IMG/VR virus record: IMGVR_UViG_3300020472_000030
Coordinates: 1-56,874 of that record
Length of the DNA: 56,874 nt
Reading direction: 5' to 3' (one strand)
Source: a virus
Lineage: Duplodnaviria > Caudoviricetes
The notes beneath the pieces were generated by a model. The model did no database searches, had not been told where the DNA came from, and saw only the letters and a list, made by a program, of their open reading frames with translations. Positions within the stretch are counted from its first letter, which is position 1. Each line of letters begins with the position of its first letter. The position numbers and the translations under genes were made by a program. Positions 20,031-23,330 of the stretch are shown here, one piece after another.

Positions 20031-20319
20031 ATTCCCCTCCGTCAAATTCCTCTCCAGAATTTCGATTTTTAACTGTATTGTACCCATTTTCTTCATAAAA
20101 GTACCGTCCGTATTTAGCAATAGTCTGCCACTTTTTCTTTAGAACTGCGTCTCGGTTTACAATACCATGTTCAGTCATTAAGTGTATAAAAGCCATTACG
20201 TCCCCGCACTCTTCTTCTAACCTGCCTATCCATTCTTCGTCTTTGTGCCTTAAAACCTTCGCACAGGCTTGCGTTAGCTCACCACATTCTTCCATGAGCT
20301 TAATATAGACATTATTCAA
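20020..20319 (-). CDS. MazG-like nucleotide pyrophosphohydrolase domain protein
   Basis: LMEECGELTQA..K, LEEECGDV. Confidence 0.75.
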   Translation of the reverse strand: MNNVYIKLMEECGELTQACAKVLRHKDEEWIGRLEEECGDVMAFIHLMTEHGIVNRDAVLKKKWQTIAKYGRYFYEENGYNTVKNRNSGEEFDGGEYVG

Positions 20320-20630
20320 TTTAATTCCTTAAGAGATTCCTCTAGTTTTTTGAGCGTTGCTTTTGGAGCTTTTTCCAAGCCCGCCAGAGACTCCACTTCG
20401 ATTCCAAGAGAATCAGCGATATTTGAAACGATTTCCACTTTTGTGACAGGTAATTCCCCAGTCTTAGTTTTATAGATTTCACGTCGATATACTCCCTCCC
20501 TTGAAAGTTTTCCTATTATTGATTTTATACTCTTGTTGAGTTCACTAGCCAAAGATTCAACAGTTGCCCTATTAGGGTTGCTTCTATACTCCTTAACTAT
20601 GTGTTGAGTCTGTTCCTCACTGTAGTTCAT
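20316..20630 (-). CDS. T5 A2-like DNA-binding protein (paralog 1)
   Basis: NYS...SIIGKLSREGVY...LAGLEKAPKATL. Confidence 0.7.
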   Translation of the reverse strand: MNYSEEQTQHIVKEYRSNPNRATVESLASELNKSIKSIIGKLSREGVYRREIYKTKTGELPVTKVEIVSNIADSLGIEVESLAGLEKAPKATLKKLEESLKELN

Positions 20631-21024: not shown

Positions 21025-21178
21025 GTACTTCTCCTGTTATATCTTTAACCGTTAGCGGTCTAAATTCCCTGTTTGGCTTCTTCGTAAGTAGTGGACAGGG
21101 AATAAACTCCGACTTTTTTCTGTTAAAAATCGGATCGGGCACAAAAGGTGCTTTCTTTTTAAACATAAAAATTCTCAC
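20996..21178 (-). CDS. hypothetical protein
   Basis: First sizeable ORF after promoter 21198-21226. Confidence 0.45.
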   Translation of the reverse strand: MRIFMFKKKAPFVPDPIFNRKKSEFIPCPLLTKKPNREFRPLTVKDITGEVHEQCNKVSD

Positions 21179-21197
21179 TTAAAATTTTCATCTGAGT

Positions 21198-21236
21198 ATT
21201 ATCGCACGAATAAGCATCCATGTCAAGAATTATTTT
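21198..21236 (-). promoter_or_regulatory. promoter, extended -10 class
   Basis: AAAATAATTC-TTGACA-N17 with TGC-GATAAT. Confidence 0.75.
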
Positions 21237-21240
21237 AACT

Positions 21241-21307
21241 CACCCATAAAAAAACCGCCATTCGATTGCTCAAATGGCGGTTCCAGCTTTCTGCTTTTTT
21301 ATGGGTG
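21241..21307 (-). terminator. nested terminator hairpin
   Basis: AACCGCCATT/AATGGCGGTT stem with T-run, enclosed by CACCCATAAAAAA/TTTTTTATGGGTG. Confidence 0.8.
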
Positions 21308-21504
21308 TGCCTACATTATGTCGCGGCAGAAGGATCAAACAGAAGTCTAAAACCCAAAACCTTCTAGCTGTCCGAGTTAGCCAACTCCCTAATCGCCTTC
21401 AAATCCGTCCGATTAGGTGACGCCGGTGGGTGTAACCACCTGTAGCAGTACGATGCTAGCTAGACGATTTTATTAGCGAGATCCGTCCAAACTCTCATTT
21501 TGTA
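21241..21504 (-). ncRNA. candidate multi-branch structured ncRNA with intrinsic terminator
   Basis: At least 8 hairpins between promoter 21511-21540 and terminator 21241-21307; only a 12-aa ORF. Confidence 0.65.
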
Positions 21505-21510
21505 GAACAT

Positions 21511-21550
21511 ATTATCTCACAAATTTAGCACTTATGTCAAGAATTATTTT
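21511..21550 (-). promoter_or_regulatory. promoter, extended -10 class
   Basis: AAAATAATTC-TTGACA-N18 with TGA-GATAAT. Confidence 0.7.
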
Positions 21551-21560
21551 CGCTCAGGTA

Positions 21561-21905
21561 CTATATGTTTTTATTCCACTTATCTACTATCCAGTAACTA
21601 ATTCCTTCTTTGCTATTGGGATTAGCTACTTCAACTCGGGAACGAAACCAGCATCCACAACAATCGTGAGTATGACCGCAAGGCTTTGTTTTTTCAAAGG
21701 ACAAAGCTAGATGTGCTACTATAACGTCACGAGTTATGTTCTTTTTATTGTTAGTAACGTGGAGTTTCCACATGCTGTACATTTCTTCGCCCAGCTCATC
21801 CTGCATGTCCATAAAACCTATAGACACCTGAGCATCTATTGATCTAGCTAGGCTTGCTACTGCCCACCCGTACTTTTCTTTAATCTGGTTGAATTCCCAA
21901 AGCAT
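21561..21905 (-). CDS. hypothetical protein with CGHxHDCCGC motif
   Basis: AAGGAG RBS; Cys/His cluster. Confidence 0.75.
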   Translation of the reverse strand: MLWEFNQIKEKYGWAVASLARSIDAQVSIGFMDMQDELGEEMYSMWKLHVTNNKKNITRDVIVAHLALSFEKTKPCGHTHDCCGCWFRSRVEVANPNSKEGISYWIVDKWNKNI

Positions 21906-22001
21906 ATTTTCTCTCCTTTCCTACCACGAAAGGGGACATGAAGTCCCCTGAGGTGGTGGGGGCTTTTGTCATCGACAGGGCGCCCCACAGACCTTTTGTG
22001 A

Positions 22002-22370
22002 TTAAGAAATAGCTGCTAAAAGCTTTTCCAAGTCACCGAAGCCAGCCTTGTTTAGGCTTGCGAACTCAACATTGAGTTGCGCTTCGATTTGTGCTACCAA
22101 ATCAGCTTTTCTCACCTGAGGTGGACGCTTGGTAGGCTTAGCTTGGGCAACGTATACACCCAGAGCAGAGAGCTTAGCGATAACACTTCGCTCAGTTTTG
22201 TCAAAGTCCAACGCGAGTTGATTAACAGTAACGCGAGTTGGGTTAGCTTCATAAGCTGAAACCATGCTGTCGATAACTTCCTGAGGGTAGTTATTGCTTT
22301 TGTTTGCTGTCATAGTCATATTAGGTCTCCCGATCCCAAAAAATTTATTTAATGTTGCTCTCAATTTCAT
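22002..22370 (-). CDS. T5 A2-like DNA-binding protein (paralog 2)
   Basis: NYP...SVIAKLSALGVY...FASLNKA; alternative RBS-led start at 22319. Confidence 0.7.
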   Translation of the reverse strand: MKLRATLNKFFGIGRPNMTMTANKSNNYPQEVIDSMVSAYEANPTRVTVNQLALDFDKTERSVIAKLSALGVYVAQAKPTKRPPQVRKADLVAQIEAQLNVEFASLNKAGFGDLEKLLAAIS

Positions 22371-22814: not shown

Positions 22815-22838
22815 GTTATTTCCTTAATTTCTGGATAT

Positions 22839-22867
22839 ATTATATAAGCAACAGCATCTGTTGTCAA
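22839..22867 (-). promoter_or_regulatory. sigma70-type promoter
   Basis: TTGACA-N17-TATAAT. Confidence 0.8.
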
Positions 22868-23022
22868 ATAAATTTGCGCCTAATCGTGAAAAAAACGCAA
22901 GGGAATTCCGGGGGGCCGCGCGCGGGGTCGTGAAGTCAAGTAATTTTCGCACATTTGCTGCAATTTTCATCAATTTTCGGCGGGGATGAGCAGACTTCCC
23001 GAATTATAAAGAATTTTGTGCG

Positions 23023-23236
23023 ACCCCGCAAAAATTTCTTGACATGCGTCGCTTTTGCACGTATACTGGCGCGGGGACGCTTCGGTTTTGCACTCTGGCG
23101 CAGGAAGACCTGGGAAAGTTAAAAAAATTTGGTCCACACCCGCAAAAAAGACTTGACATTCTTCGCTTTTGCACTTATTATGGCGCGAGCAACACCATTT
23201 AAATACTACTTCACTTTCGCACTGGCGCCCGCGCGC
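23023..23236 (+). repeat. imperfect direct repeat (period 114 bp), each unit with a promoter-like sequence and TTTYGCAC/TGGCGC motifs
   Basis: CCCGCAAAAA..CTTGACAT..TCGCTTTTGCAC.TAT..TGGCGCG near 23025 and 23139. Confidence 0.8.
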
Positions 23237-23314
23237 CAAAAATCTGGATTTTTCAAGATTTTTCGAGGGGCTGGAGGCCGCATTTTTAAAGGGCTGTAGA
23301 GCAGGGTCGCGGCA

Positions 23315-23330
23315 TGTTTCACGTGGAACA
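23315..23330. promoter_or_regulatory. parS: parS site (chromosomal ParB-binding palindrome)
   Basis: TGTTTCACGTGGAACA; reverse complement TGTTCCACGTGAAACA matches the consensus TGTTNCACGTGAAACA exactly. Confidence 0.75.

What the first reader, a model, noticed from the sequence alone, without database searches (positions are those of the whole stretch)
21241..21504. Second candidate ncRNA: self-contained ~260-nt multi-branch RNA with alternative folds
Seen (minus strand): its own promoter (21511-40) and terminator (21241-307), with a fresh promoter for the next gene, so this is a stand-alone unit. A 7-bp stem TCTAGCT/AGCTAGA (21458-64/21363-69) closes four arms (AGCA/TGCT, GGTGG/CCACC, CCTAATCG/CGATTAGG, GAGTT/AACTC), forming a five-way junction. 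Both strands of that stem can instead pair with flanking sequence (21460-68 with 21481-90; 21360-65 with 21328-33). A 12-aa ORF MRVWTDLANKIV (21498-21460) stops inside the stem. GGACGGAT occurs twice. Inference: an undescribed phage sRNA. Options are a tRNA-like decoy, a CsrA/RsmA sponge (ANGGA motifs) or a translation-coupled switch.
Basis: partly seen in the sequence, partly recalled or inferred. Interest (0 to 1): 0.8.

Follow-up and report, generated by a model that had tools for sequence, protein, structure and literature searches.

The report
New structured RNA in marine phage
This is a real non-coding RNA gene of about 255 bases in an uncultured marine T5-like phage, one member of a previously undescribed family of modular structured RNAs that sits where related phages keep their tRNA genes; what it does is still unknown.

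Summary
The unit exists as described. It has a near-consensus sigma-70 promoter (21540-21511, minus strand), about 255 nt with no conserved ORF, a strong terminator (stem 21284-21253, U-run to 21248), and then a fresh promoter.

It has no match in Rfam 15, ARAGORN or GenBank phages. The contig is an uncultured marine siphovirus; its nearest cultured relatives are T5-like phages (TerL about 49% identical).

A junction-pattern scan found 60 distinct related loci. Two local structures recur with compensatory changes:
- a 5' pseudoknot-like hairpin (21496-21462);
- a hairpin with a near-invariant 14-nt loop (21417-21388).

The 5' strand is present in 2 of 6 distinct close relatives. Without the terminator the RNA folds no better than shuffles (z -0.78).

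The 5' ~70 nt is swapped for another module in the closest relatives, so the family is mosaic. In relatives, tRNA genes lie in or next to the same unit. Two RNA-library contigs fall inside the unit.

The tRNA-like, CsrA-sponge and 12-aa-ORF switch readings all fail their tests.

Best reading: an early, stable, trans-acting structured RNA whose conserved loop is a binding surface. The partner is unknown.

The parts
21511..21540 (-). Sigma-70 promoter: -35 TTGACA at 21540-21535, TG-extended -10 GATAAT at 21516-21511, preceded by the A/T-rich motif AATAATTC at 21548-21541
   Evidence: scores it 11 of 12 with TG. The motif AATAATTCTTGACA occurs 13 times in the window with up to 2 mismatches, against 1.2 expected. 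The start site near 21504 is inferred.
21462..21496 (-). 5' pseudoknot-like module. S1 is GAGAG (21496-92) with CUCGC (21480-76). S2 is GGACGGAU (21488-81) with AUCGUCU (21468-62). The A-rich loop UAAUAAA lies at 21475-69.
   Evidence: S2 has 4 of 6 pairs with changes on both sides and 95.3% of cells paired in 18 distinct sequences. S1 never covaries. Model R2 hits the window once, at 21460-21498 (E 6.7e-08).
21443..21463 (-). Palindrome CUAGCUAG followed by the small hairpin UAGCA-UCGUAC-UGCUA.
   Evidence: The same letters occur in L074, L012/L076 and L028. There is no variation, so no covariation test is possible.
21425..21440 (-).
   Evidence: Folds. In 18 of 21 distinct family sequences the fold puts a hairpin of unrelated sequence just 5' of the conserved CGU; in the 3 L002-type rows it does not. 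This is positional conservation only.
21388..21417 (-). Hairpin B: 8-bp stem CCUAAUCG/CGAUUAGG with the 14-nt loop GACGGAUUUGAAGG (21409-21396).
   Evidence: 6 of 9 pairs change on both sides. Covariation score is 0.568 against 0.278 in shuffles (0 of 500 reach it). 88.3% of cells are paired, against at most 48% when the partner is slid. Model R1 has 29 hits in 60 sources, one of them in the window.
21374..21387 (-).
   Evidence: Folds. L074 has GAGC/GCUC, one compensatory pair. L002-type has a G-U pair there. Support is weak.
21308..21369 (-). 3' body. AGAAGG (21365-60) can pair with CCUUCU (21333-28). A small hairpin lies at 21328-21308.
   Evidence: About 94% identical to L002 over 192 nt, against about 81-86% for the flanking genes. 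The pairings are predicted only.
21241..21307 (-). Rho-independent terminator: stem 21284-21253 and U-run 21254-21248, inside a longer A-tract/U-tract palindrome
   Evidence: The stem changes on both sides across the family, reading CCGCC/GGCGG, CCACC/GGUGG or CCACU/AGUGG in different rows (read by eye). It was not listed by the scan.
21198..21226 (-). Promoter of the next unit (56-aa ORF starting at 21166, then the 135-aa gene)
   Evidence: scores it 11 of 12 with TG. The terminator-promoter junction pattern matches the window once and each of the 11 matching loci then held once.

Best explanation
The finding is a genuine non-coding RNA gene. It is transcribed early by host sigma-70 RNA polymerase from its own strong promoter and ends at a strong intrinsic terminator, giving an RNA of about 255 nt.

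It belongs to a family absent from Rfam 15. The family consists of modular, fast-evolving structured RNAs in uncultured marine T5-like siphoviruses. They occupy an accessory 'RNA island' between a conserved 122-aa early gene and a conserved terminator-promoter junction. In relatives this island also carries tRNA genes.

The window's version is built from these parts, 5' to 3':
- a 5' pseudoknot-like hairpin;
- a small palindrome-containing hairpin;
- hairpin A;
- hairpin B, with a near-invariant 14-nt apical loop;
- a conserved 3' body;
- the terminator.

Most likely mechanism (inferred): the RNA accumulates as a stable molecule. Its 5' end is shielded by the compact 5' structure and its 3' end by the terminator hairpin. 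It acts in trans, and the conserved loop of hairpin B is the surface recognised by a protein or another RNA.

Shown: the promoter and terminator signals, the non-coding nature, covariation in two helices, the recurrence and shuffling of modules, the linkage to tRNA genes in relatives, and presence in RNA libraries.

Inferred: stability, action in trans, and the existence of a binding partner.

I put about 0.8 on 'a real structured ncRNA of a new family' and about 0.45 on the trans-acting binding mechanism.
For: Signals: near-consensus promoter and a 14-bp terminator with U7.

Non-coding nature:
- The only ORF on the transcribed strand is 12 aa. L002-type relatives have a different 10-aa ORF in its place.
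- Close relatives differ by two 1-nt indels, placed symmetrically in the hairpin B stem, and by a 2-nt indel.

Family: a junction-pattern scan gave 64 metagenome loci. Together with the viral loci, this makes 60 distinct sequences, of which 42 form one similarity cluster.

Structure:
- S2 has 4 of 6 pairs changed on both sides.
- Hairpin B has 6 of 9 pairs changed on both sides.
- G-U pairs occur on the transcribed strand: GU in 10 rows at pair 6-36 and UG in 7 rows at pair 5-37. These would be mismatches in the opposite strand, which favours an RNA structure over a DNA one.

Specificity: models R1 and R2 hit only this locus and only the gene strand in 357 kb searched on both strands.

Autonomy:
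- In L012, L017 and L022 the element directly follows the 122-aa gene with no promoter.
- In the window and in L002, L019, L024, L037, L040, L060, L074, L080 and L086 a consensus promoter precedes it.
- In L024 one promoter-to-terminator unit holds tRNA-Met plus about 390 nt of such RNA.

Conservation: the 3' 192 nt is 93.75% identical to L002, against about 81-86% for the flanking genes. G+C is 46% against 39% for the window.

Expression hint: two metatranscriptome runs from one study hold 100%-identical contigs that lie wholly inside the unit, at 21304-21478 (depth 6.2) and 21296-21456 (depth 3.2). The only other piece from those two runs is a depth-2 contig at 20625-20775.
Against: - Without the terminator, the fold is no more stable than shuffled sequence (z -0.78).
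- The closing stem and the five-way junction have no comparative support.
- The S1 pairing that would make the 5' module a true pseudoknot never covaries.
- The RNA-library evidence comes from assembled contigs in one study. DNA carry-over cannot be excluded, and neither ends nor strand are shown.
- In L012, L017 and L022 the element has no promoter of its own, so there it could act in cis as a 3' UTR.
- No partner or target was found. The complement of the loop has no site in the window beyond chance: 2 sites with 3 mismatches beside the loop's own locus, against 0.96 expected.
- The host is unknown, so host targets could not be searched.
- The close relatives that share the 3' body are few (6 distinct) and nearly identical there.
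Confidence: 0.45

Rival explanations
1. A cis-acting RNA element of the early operon. On this reading it is a structured 3' UTR or insulator that stabilises or processes the upstream transcript (mRNA or tRNA precursor) and enforces termination before the next promoter. It would not be a trans-acting RNA.
For: In L012, L017 and L022 the element starts a few nt after the stop codon of the 122-aa gene with no promoter between; the other promoter-less rows read the same way. It always ends at the conserved terminator-promoter junction. In L024 it shares a transcription unit with tRNA-Met. The window keeps another island piece directly after the 122-aa gene, at 21906-22001.
Against: In the window, and in at least nine relatives, the element has its own consensus promoter. 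In the window it is separated from the 122-aa gene by another gene. An invariant 14-nt loop on a covarying stem is more than an end-protecting hairpin needs. The RNA-library contigs cover this unit and not the upstream gene (weak).
Confidence: 0.22
2. A decoy or inhibitor RNA that belongs to the phage's tRNA-linked counter-defence island. On this reading it mimics or sequesters something recognised by a host RNA-targeting defence nuclease or sensor.
For: It lies in the tRNA island. tRNA-Tyr sits about 0.4 kb upstream in L040 and L074 and is cleanly absent from the window. tRNA clusters abut the element in L024, L026 and L080. Abstracts in the search listings report that tRNAs of T5-family and T-even phages counter retron and Septu defences that cleave tRNA-Tyr (PMC11555353 and 10.1101/2023.03.15.532788; PMC13096335). 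Presence/absence variation and module shuffling fit an arms-race locus.
Against: It shows no tRNA likeness by ARAGORN or the Rfam tRNA model. I saw no resemblance between hairpin B and the tRNA-Tyr of L040 (by eye). There is no defence-related evidence for this RNA itself.
Confidence: 0.12
3. A CsrA/RsmA sponge that titrates the host regulator through GGA-containing loops.
For: ACGGA occurs in the conserved hairpin B loop and again in S2. The RNA contains 3 ANGGA motifs and 7 GGA motifs.
Against: There is no enrichment. GGA is 7 against 4.4 +/- 1.8 in shuffles (13% of shuffles reach it). ANGGA is 3 against 1.2 +/- 1.0 (11% reach it). Only one GGA loop is conserved across the family. The second copy sits inside a helix and is window-specific. 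There is no Rfam match to any family, Csr/Rsm included.
Confidence: 0.04
4. A translation-coupled switch or small-peptide gene, in which the 12-aa ORF is translated and its ribosome remodels the fold.
For: AUG at 21498 is followed by a stop inside the proposed closing stem. L002-type relatives also have an AUG at the same place.
Against: I see no Shine-Dalgarno sequence. The peptides are unrelated (12 aa against 10 aa). The AUG is absent in L012, L017 and L022, where the module follows a stop codon. The AUGAG letters are part of the conserved S1 strand.
Confidence: 0.02
5. A mosaic intergenic spacer or decaying remnant of a larger RNA/tRNA island. Only the terminator, and perhaps one protein-binding hairpin, would still be functional.
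For: The body folds no better than shuffles. The 5' 70 nt is swapped wholesale between close relatives. tRNA-Tyr was lost nearby. The window's version is among the shortest non-coding stretches of the family: 313 nt against up to about 508 nt.
Against: The 3' body is more conserved than the flanking genes. A consensus promoter is dedicated to it. Two helices are kept by compensatory change. It is present in RNA libraries.
Confidence: 0.12

Closest known systems
T4 RNAC and RNAD (small stable phage RNAs of unknown function)
   Same: They are phage-encoded, non-coding and discrete small RNAs with no assigned function. PMC9697503 (passages seen) calls them 'RNAs of yet unknown functions' and validates them by Northern blot. 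Their position in the T4 tRNA gene cluster is recalled, not checked here.
   Different: No sequence or structure comparison with them was run. T4 classes them as late RNAs; this unit has an early-type sigma-70 promoter. The phage lineage is also different (a T5-like siphovirus).
H-type pseudoknot aptamers and recoding pseudoknots (for example the preQ1-I riboswitch topology)
   Same: The 5' module has the same strand order: stem 1, a short U loop, stem 2, then an A-rich third loop. In promoter-less relatives it sits a few nt after a stop codon.
   Different: No Rfam family, preQ1 classes included, matches at E up to 10. Stem 1 has no covariation support. In the window the module is at the 5' end of a non-coding transcript, not in a queuosine-gene leader or at a recoding site. 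L012 carries it 2-3 times in tandem.
GOLLD and ROOL (large phage-associated structured RNAs often next to tRNA genes)
   Same: They are structured RNAs of unknown function found in phage or metagenome DNA and associated with tRNA genes. That association is recalled, not from a call.
   Different: The Rfam 15 search returned no non-tRNA family in the window or in the 26 loci searched. This RNA is shorter (about 255 to about 500 nt) and mosaic.
CsrB/RsmZ-type protein sponges
   Same: A GGA motif sits in an apical loop (hairpin B).
   Different: Only one such loop is conserved, GGA is not enriched, and there is no Rfam match.
Candidate structured RNAs predicted from IMG/VR intergenic regions (PMC10690425)
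   Same: That survey used the same kind of data: 8495 candidates from IMG/VR, including tRNA-like structures and terminators (passages seen).
   Different: Whether this family is among them cannot be told.

Membership tests
tRNA / tRNA-like structure | A cloverleaf recognised by tRNA detectors: 7-bp acceptor stem, D arm, 7-nt anticodon loop and T-loop | tested here: not met
   ARAGORN finds 0 genes in the window. The Rfam tRNA model gives no hit, even at E up to 10 in 21100-21650. The same tools find tRNAs in relatives' loci. The arms here have a 6-nt and a 4-nt loop in the two arms that would correspond to the anticodon arm and the T arm.
CsrB/RsmZ-type sponge | Many GGA/ANGGA motifs exposed in loops, enriched over background | tested here: not met
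   7 GGA against 4.4 +/- 1.8, and 3 ANGGA against 1.2 +/- 1.0, in 2000 shuffles. Only the hairpin B loop motif is conserved.
CsrB/RsmZ-type sponge | A match to a curated Csr/Rsm covariance model | tested here: not met
   No Rfam match at gathering score in the window. No Csr/Rsm family appears among the 6 weak hits at E up to 10.
preQ1-I riboswitch | A match to the curated model, and a location in the leader of queuosine-related genes | tested here: not met
   No hit at E up to 10. The module is followed by more non-coding RNA and a terminator, not by a gene.
H-type pseudoknot (topology only) | Two helices with crossing strands, both supported | tested here: inconclusive
   S2 has 4 of 6 pairs with changes on both sides. 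S1 has 0 of 5, is 89.2% paired and is mostly invariant.
Rho-independent terminator | A G+C-rich hairpin directly followed by a U-run | tested here: met
   A 14-bp hairpin plus U7. The stem changes on both sides across the family (by eye). The consensus scan did not list it; I infer that its stem extension absorbs the first U residues.
New family defined here (marine T5-like phage RNA-island RNAs) | Hairpin B, with the loop GACGNAAY.GAAAG-like on a covarying stem, preceded by CGU | tested here: met
   Model R1 hits the window at 21383-21423, 39.3 bits, E 4.1e-08. It has 29 hits in 60 sources.
New family defined here (marine T5-like phage RNA-island RNAs) | The 5' GAGAG-UU-GG...CUC-A-rich-loop module with a covarying S2 | tested here: met
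   Model R2 hits the window at 21460-21498, 40.7 bits, E 6.7e-08. It gives 25 hits at E below 1e-5 in 23 sources, plus one weak opposite-strand hit (E 0.33) in L073.
New family defined here (marine T5-like phage RNA-island RNAs) | A position between the 122-aa early gene and the conserved terminator-promoter junction | tested here: met
   In the window a 114-aa gene and a promoter are interposed.

The most novel reading that the evidence does not exclude
The RNA island of these marine T5-like phages is a counter-defence locus made of RNA. Its shuffled structured modules (the 5' pseudoknot-like hairpin, the conserved-loop hairpin B and the GAUAAG module of relatives) would be aptamer-like decoys or inhibitors. 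Each would neutralise a host RNA-targeting immune nuclease or sensor, and they would be exchanged between phages in the same way as the neighbouring tRNA genes. The window's RNA would then be a minimal two-module inhibitor that is expressed on its own.
Probability: 0.1. Interest if true: 0.85.

Novelty: new member of a known kind. Interest (0 to 1): 0.55.

Why it matters
Phage-encoded structured RNAs without a known function are few and poorly understood. This one comes with a ready-made comparative data set: about 40 distinct related sequences, two helices supported by covariation, an invariant 14-nt loop and clear module boundaries.

It also sits in the variable tRNA region, which recent work on T5-family and T-even phages links to evasion of tRNA-cleaving defences. 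That work was seen here only as abstracts in search listings.

If the family acts in trans, it would add a new class of phage RNA effector. If it acts in cis, it would show how these phages build and insulate early transcription units. Either way it is a candidate for a new Rfam family.

Tried and rejected
**Searches that found nothing**
- Rfam at gathering score on the window: 0 hits.
- Rfam at E up to 10 on 21100-21650: six weak hits, five of them on the opposite strand and all lying mostly over the terminator or the next gene. Rejected as chance.
- Rfam on 26 related loci: only tRNAs, plus two sub-threshold opposite-strand Plastid-ycf2 matches over tRNA genes.
- ARAGORN on the window: 0 genes.
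- blastn (distant mode) against GenBank phages: no match.
- Paralogues within the window: none beyond promoter and terminator pieces.
- The genome record holds one copy.

**Neighbouring proteins**
- PHROGs and Pfam give only weak or generic hits and nothing RNA-related.

**Uninformative collection scans**
- The hairpin B pattern with only 14 specified bases was scanned in viral contigs and genome contigs.
- Of the 240 matches checked, 2 had a stem of 5 bp or more, and neither resembles the family.
- These are chance matches.

**Other negative tests**
- Complement of the hairpin B loop in the window: only chance-level sites.
- GGA enrichment: none.
- Fold stability of the body: not exceptional.
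- RNAalifold on the 3' body of 6 sequences: only the terminator and weak helices.

**Sequencing runs**
- Run X21 laid nothing, and X19 covered only 21963-22120. This is no evidence either way.
- Parts of the unit without RNA-contig cover are likewise no evidence.

**Literature**
- The four-term T5 search found 0 papers. Searches gave context only.
- None of the five searches listed a paper describing this RNA.
- The supplements of PMC10690425 could bear on prior description, but they are closed.

**Tool unavailable**
Full report
**What the window is.** The window is a whole IMG/VR virus record of 56,874 bases, estimated about 59% complete. Its minus-strand half carries early and replication genes: a PolA-type polymerase, a DnaB-like helicase and an NAD ligase. 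Its plus-strand half carries terminase, a protease-capsid fusion, the major tail protein and the tape measure. The large terminase is at best about 49% identical to those of T5-like Vibrio and Pectobacterium phages. This is therefore an uncultured marine siphovirus distantly related to the T5 group. DNA of the region is held by seawater and marine metagenome runs from several studies. The motif AATAATTCTTGACA occurs 13 times with up to 2 mismatches, against 1.2 expected. The phage therefore uses many strong sigma-70-type promoters.

**The observation.** On the minus strand the sequence reads as follows.
- TTGACA at 21540-21535, 18 nt, then a TG-extended GATAAT at 21516-21511 (11 of 12).
- About 255 nt without a credible ORF.
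- A 14-bp hairpin at 21284-21253 followed by seven U, embedded in a longer A-tract/U-tract palindrome at 21307-21241.
- A second promoter at 21226-21198 for the next genes.

The consensus terminator scan did not list the hairpin. I infer that this is because its stem can be extended into the U-run.

The stability figures need care. The z-score is -5.0 with the terminator but only -0.78 for the body at 21308-21504, where 39 of 200 shuffles fold at least as well. The opposite strand gives -1.76. Thermodynamics alone therefore does not single out this RNA.

**Known families.** Nothing known matches.
- Rfam 15 gives nothing at gathering score in the window and only weak, chance-level hits at E up to 10 in 21100-21650, five of the six on the opposite strand.
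- ARAGORN finds no tRNA or tmRNA in the window.
- blastn against 50,697 GenBank phage records finds nothing.
- There is one copy in the record and no paralogue.

**Relatives.** Neighbouring proteins led to one closely related IMG/VR contig (L002, also fetched as L008, L009 and L015).
- In the alignment, the promoter, the 3' ~190 nt, the terminator and the next promoter are nearly identical. Identity is 93.75% over 192 nt, against about 81-86% for the flanking genes.
- The 5' ~70 nt after the start site has no similarity at all.

Anchoring on the nearby PPK2-like gene showed non-coding units of different sequence at the same place in more distant contigs (L012, L017, L019).

The terminator-promoter junction turned out to be a specific tag. 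Its pattern matches once in the window and once in each of the 11 matching loci then held. Scanning metagenome contigs with it gave 64 loci. Together with the viral loci this makes 60 distinct sequences, of which 42 form one similarity cluster.

**A mosaic family.** The units are built from recurring modules in varying combinations.
- L002, L040, L060 and L086 share the window's 3' body. In place of its 5' part they carry a module with the motif GAUAAGGCAGUAAAGAU.
- L074 carries both 5' modules in tandem, in a non-coding stretch of about 508 nt.
- L012 and L076 carry the window's 5' module two to three times in tandem.

Close relatives differ by 1-nt indels, placed symmetrically in the two strands of one stem, and by a 2-nt indel. 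The window's 12-aa ORF is replaced by an unrelated 10-aa ORF in L002. Its AUG is absent in L012, L017 and L022, where the module follows a stop codon. The region is therefore not protein-coding.

**Helices supported by comparison.**

*The 5' module (21496-21462).* It reads GAGAG, UUU, GGACGGAU, CUCGC, UAAUAAA, AUCGUCU. The second and last segments form helix S2.
- In an alignment of 18 distinct occurrences, 4 of 6 S2 pairs change on both sides and 95.3% of cells pair. S2 takes several different forms: the window's own, GGCAA/UUGCC, GGCCGU/ACGGCC, GGGUGA/UCGCCC and GGUCGA/UCGACC.
- The GAGAG/CUCKC pairing (S1) would make this an H-type pseudoknot. It is compatible with the data (89.2% paired) but never covaries, so the pseudoknot remains a proposal.
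It overlaps the closing stem's 5' strand by three bases, so the two compete.

- Its 14-nt loop is almost invariant, while the stem changes freely. Stem forms include CCUAAUCG/CGAUUAGG, CUCUACA/UGUAGGG, CCUGACA/UGUCAGG and UUACGAUA/UGUCGUA.
- In 18 distinct sequences, 6 of 9 pairs change on both sides. The covariation score is 0.568 against 0.278 in shuffles, and 0 of 500 shuffles reach it.
- 88.3% of cells pair, against at most 48% when the partner is slid.
- The window row is penalised in this count, because its stem is one pair longer than the alignment allows.
- G-U and U-G pairs on the transcribed strand argue for an RNA structure rather than a DNA one.

*Model searches.* Covariance models of the two modules find them once each in the window, only at this locus and only on the gene strand. 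Hairpin B has 29 hits in 60 sources. The 5' module has 25 confident hits in 23 sources plus one weak opposite-strand hit. The search covered 357 kb on both strands.

**Parts with weak or no support.**
- Hairpin A (21440-21425) has positional counterparts of unrelated sequence just 5' of the conserved CGU in 18 of 21 distinct family sequences.
- Hairpin C (21387-21374) has one compensatory pair in L074.
- The small hairpin at 21458-21443 and the palindrome CUAGCUAG are identical wherever they occur, so they cannot be tested.
- The closing stem's 5' strand is present in only 2 of 6 distinct close relatives (window and L074, identical letters), while its 3' strand is present in all 6.

The five-way junction is therefore not a conserved feature. 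The duplicated GGACGGAU is specific to the window.

**Genomic setting.** The island lies between a conserved 122-aa early gene (22002-22370 in the window) and the conserved junction.
- In L012, L017 and L022 the 5' module begins a few nt after that gene's stop codon, with no promoter.
- In the window and in L002, L019, L024, L037, L040, L060, L074, L080 and L086 a consensus promoter precedes the RNA.
- tRNA genes lie in or next to the island in relatives. L024 has Gly, Tyr, His and Asp genes, then a promoter driving tRNA-Met plus about 390 nt of structured RNA up to the terminator. L026, L037 and L080 also carry tRNA genes there.
- In L040 and L074 a tRNA-Tyr sits just upstream of the 114-aa gene. 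The window has a clean absence of it between conserved flanks.
- The window also keeps a second island fragment directly after the 122-aa gene (21906-22001). It shares the motif GUCGAUGACAAAAG with the 5' modules of L034, L035, L046, L048 and L074.

**Expression.**
- Two rRNA-depleted metatranscriptome runs from one study contain 100%-identical contigs lying wholly within the unit: 21304-21478 at depth 6.2 and 21296-21456 at depth 3.2.
- The only other piece from those runs is a depth-2 contig in the 135-aa gene. A third run covers part of the 122-aa gene, and a fourth covers nothing.
- These are assembled contigs. They show neither strand nor ends, and DNA carry-over is not excluded. This is a hint, not proof.

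- tRNA-like: fails the detectors.
- CsrA sponge: GGA (7 against 4.4 +/- 1.8) and ANGGA (3 against 1.2 +/- 1.0) are not enriched. Only one GGA loop is conserved.
- Translation-coupled switch: the ORF is not conserved and, as far as I can see, has no ribosome-binding site.
- Base-pairing to phage mRNAs through the hairpin B loop: no site beyond chance in the window. Host targets cannot be searched because the host is unknown.

**Interpretation.** I am fairly confident (about 0.8) that this is a real structured non-coding RNA gene and a member of a family not present in Rfam 15.

The mechanism I favour (about 0.45) is a stable, early, trans-acting RNA. Its ends would be protected by the compact 5' module and the terminator hairpin, and its conserved hairpin B loop would be a recognition surface. 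The arguments are these:
- a dedicated consensus promoter in several lineages;
- the combination of an invariant loop with a covarying stem;
- higher conservation than the neighbouring genes;
- the tRNA-gene company it keeps.

The main rival is a cis-acting 3' UTR, processing or insulator element (0.22). It is suggested by the promoter-less arrangement in L012, L017 and L022.

A counter-defence decoy role (0.12) is suggested only by context. Abstracts seen in search listings link phage tRNA regions to escape from tRNA-Tyr-cleaving retron and Septu systems (PMC11555353 and 10.1101/2023.03.15.532788; PMC13096335).

**Comparison with what is known.**
- The nearest analogues in kind are T4's RNAC and RNAD, small phage RNAs 'of yet unknown functions' (PMC9697503, passages). 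Their tRNA-cluster location is recalled.
- The large phage-associated GOLLD and ROOL RNAs are also analogues. Their tRNA association is recalled, and no non-tRNA Rfam family matched here.
- A survey of IMG/VR intergenic regions predicted 8495 candidate structured RNAs (PMC10690425, passages). Its lists are in supplements that I could not open, so the family may already be catalogued there without a name.
- None of the five literature searches listed a paper describing this RNA.

**Verdict.** The five-way junction and the three proposed functions are not supported. I class it as a new member of a known kind (a phage-encoded structured small RNA of unknown function), with moderate interest.

Noticed in passing
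window 21906-22001 (minus strand): Directly after the stop codon of the 122-aa gene lies another structured non-coding piece. It has a module with the motif GUCGAUGACAAAAG and a stem GGGGC/GCCCC; relatives have GGGGAC/GUCCCC there. This is followed by the hairpin GGGGAC-UUCAU-GUCCCC. The same module opens the RNA unit in L034, L035, L046, L048 and L074.
   Followed up: partly
window about 21906-21912; L040 13605-13688; L074 348-431: Relatives L040 and L074 carry a tRNA-Tyr gene between conserved flanks just upstream of the 114-aa gene. The window lacks it cleanly, and ARAGORN finds no tRNA anywhere in the window.
   Followed up: yes
window 22815-23318: About 500 nt with no credible ORF; the listed 136-aa frame looks spurious. 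It contains two roughly 50-nt direct repeats, G+C-rich stretches and four consensus promoters facing both ways: 22867-22839 on the minus strand, 23039-23067 and 23153-23181 on the plus strand, and 22405-22377 on the minus strand nearby. It could be a regulatory or origin-like region.
   Followed up: no
L055, L036, L057, L059, L062 (the 700 nt upstream of the same terminator-promoter junction): In other contigs the junction is preceded by long purine-rich sequence. L055 and L057 have no open frame of 55 codons or more in the 700 nt. In L036, L059 and L062 the last such frame ends 188-387 nt before the terminator. None has an Rfam match. These may be much larger non-coding RNAs at the analogous place.
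   Followed up: partly
L002 3410-3490; L017 8340-8470; L022 970-1090; L024, L031, L037, L053, L074: A second widespread module is absent from the window. It reads GGGAAGYCAGGGAC, a variable hairpin, GAUAAGRCAGUAAAGAU, a stem, GGUAAAAC, GCCU, the stem's other strand, then AGCCC. By eye, the stems covary (CGUGG/CCACG-type, UUCGG/CCGAA, UUGUGG/CCACAA) and there is a 3-bp GYC/GRC pairing.
   Followed up: partly
L012 3106-3223 (and L076): Two to three tandem copies of the 5' pseudoknot-like module lie in a row right after the stop codon of the 122-aa gene. Two of them pass model R2.
   Followed up: partly
L024 1460-1960: One consensus promoter drives tRNA-Met and then about 390 nt of structured non-coding RNA up to the conserved terminator, so the tRNA and the structured RNA share a transcription unit there.
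   Followed up: partly
window 20316-20630 and 22002-22370: By eye, the 104-aa and 122-aa early proteins that flank the island look like paralogues: both have an N-terminal helix-turn-helix-like part and a similar C-terminal tail. Family hits are weak (D5-like regulator, DNA-binding protein, IF2_N).
   Followed up: no
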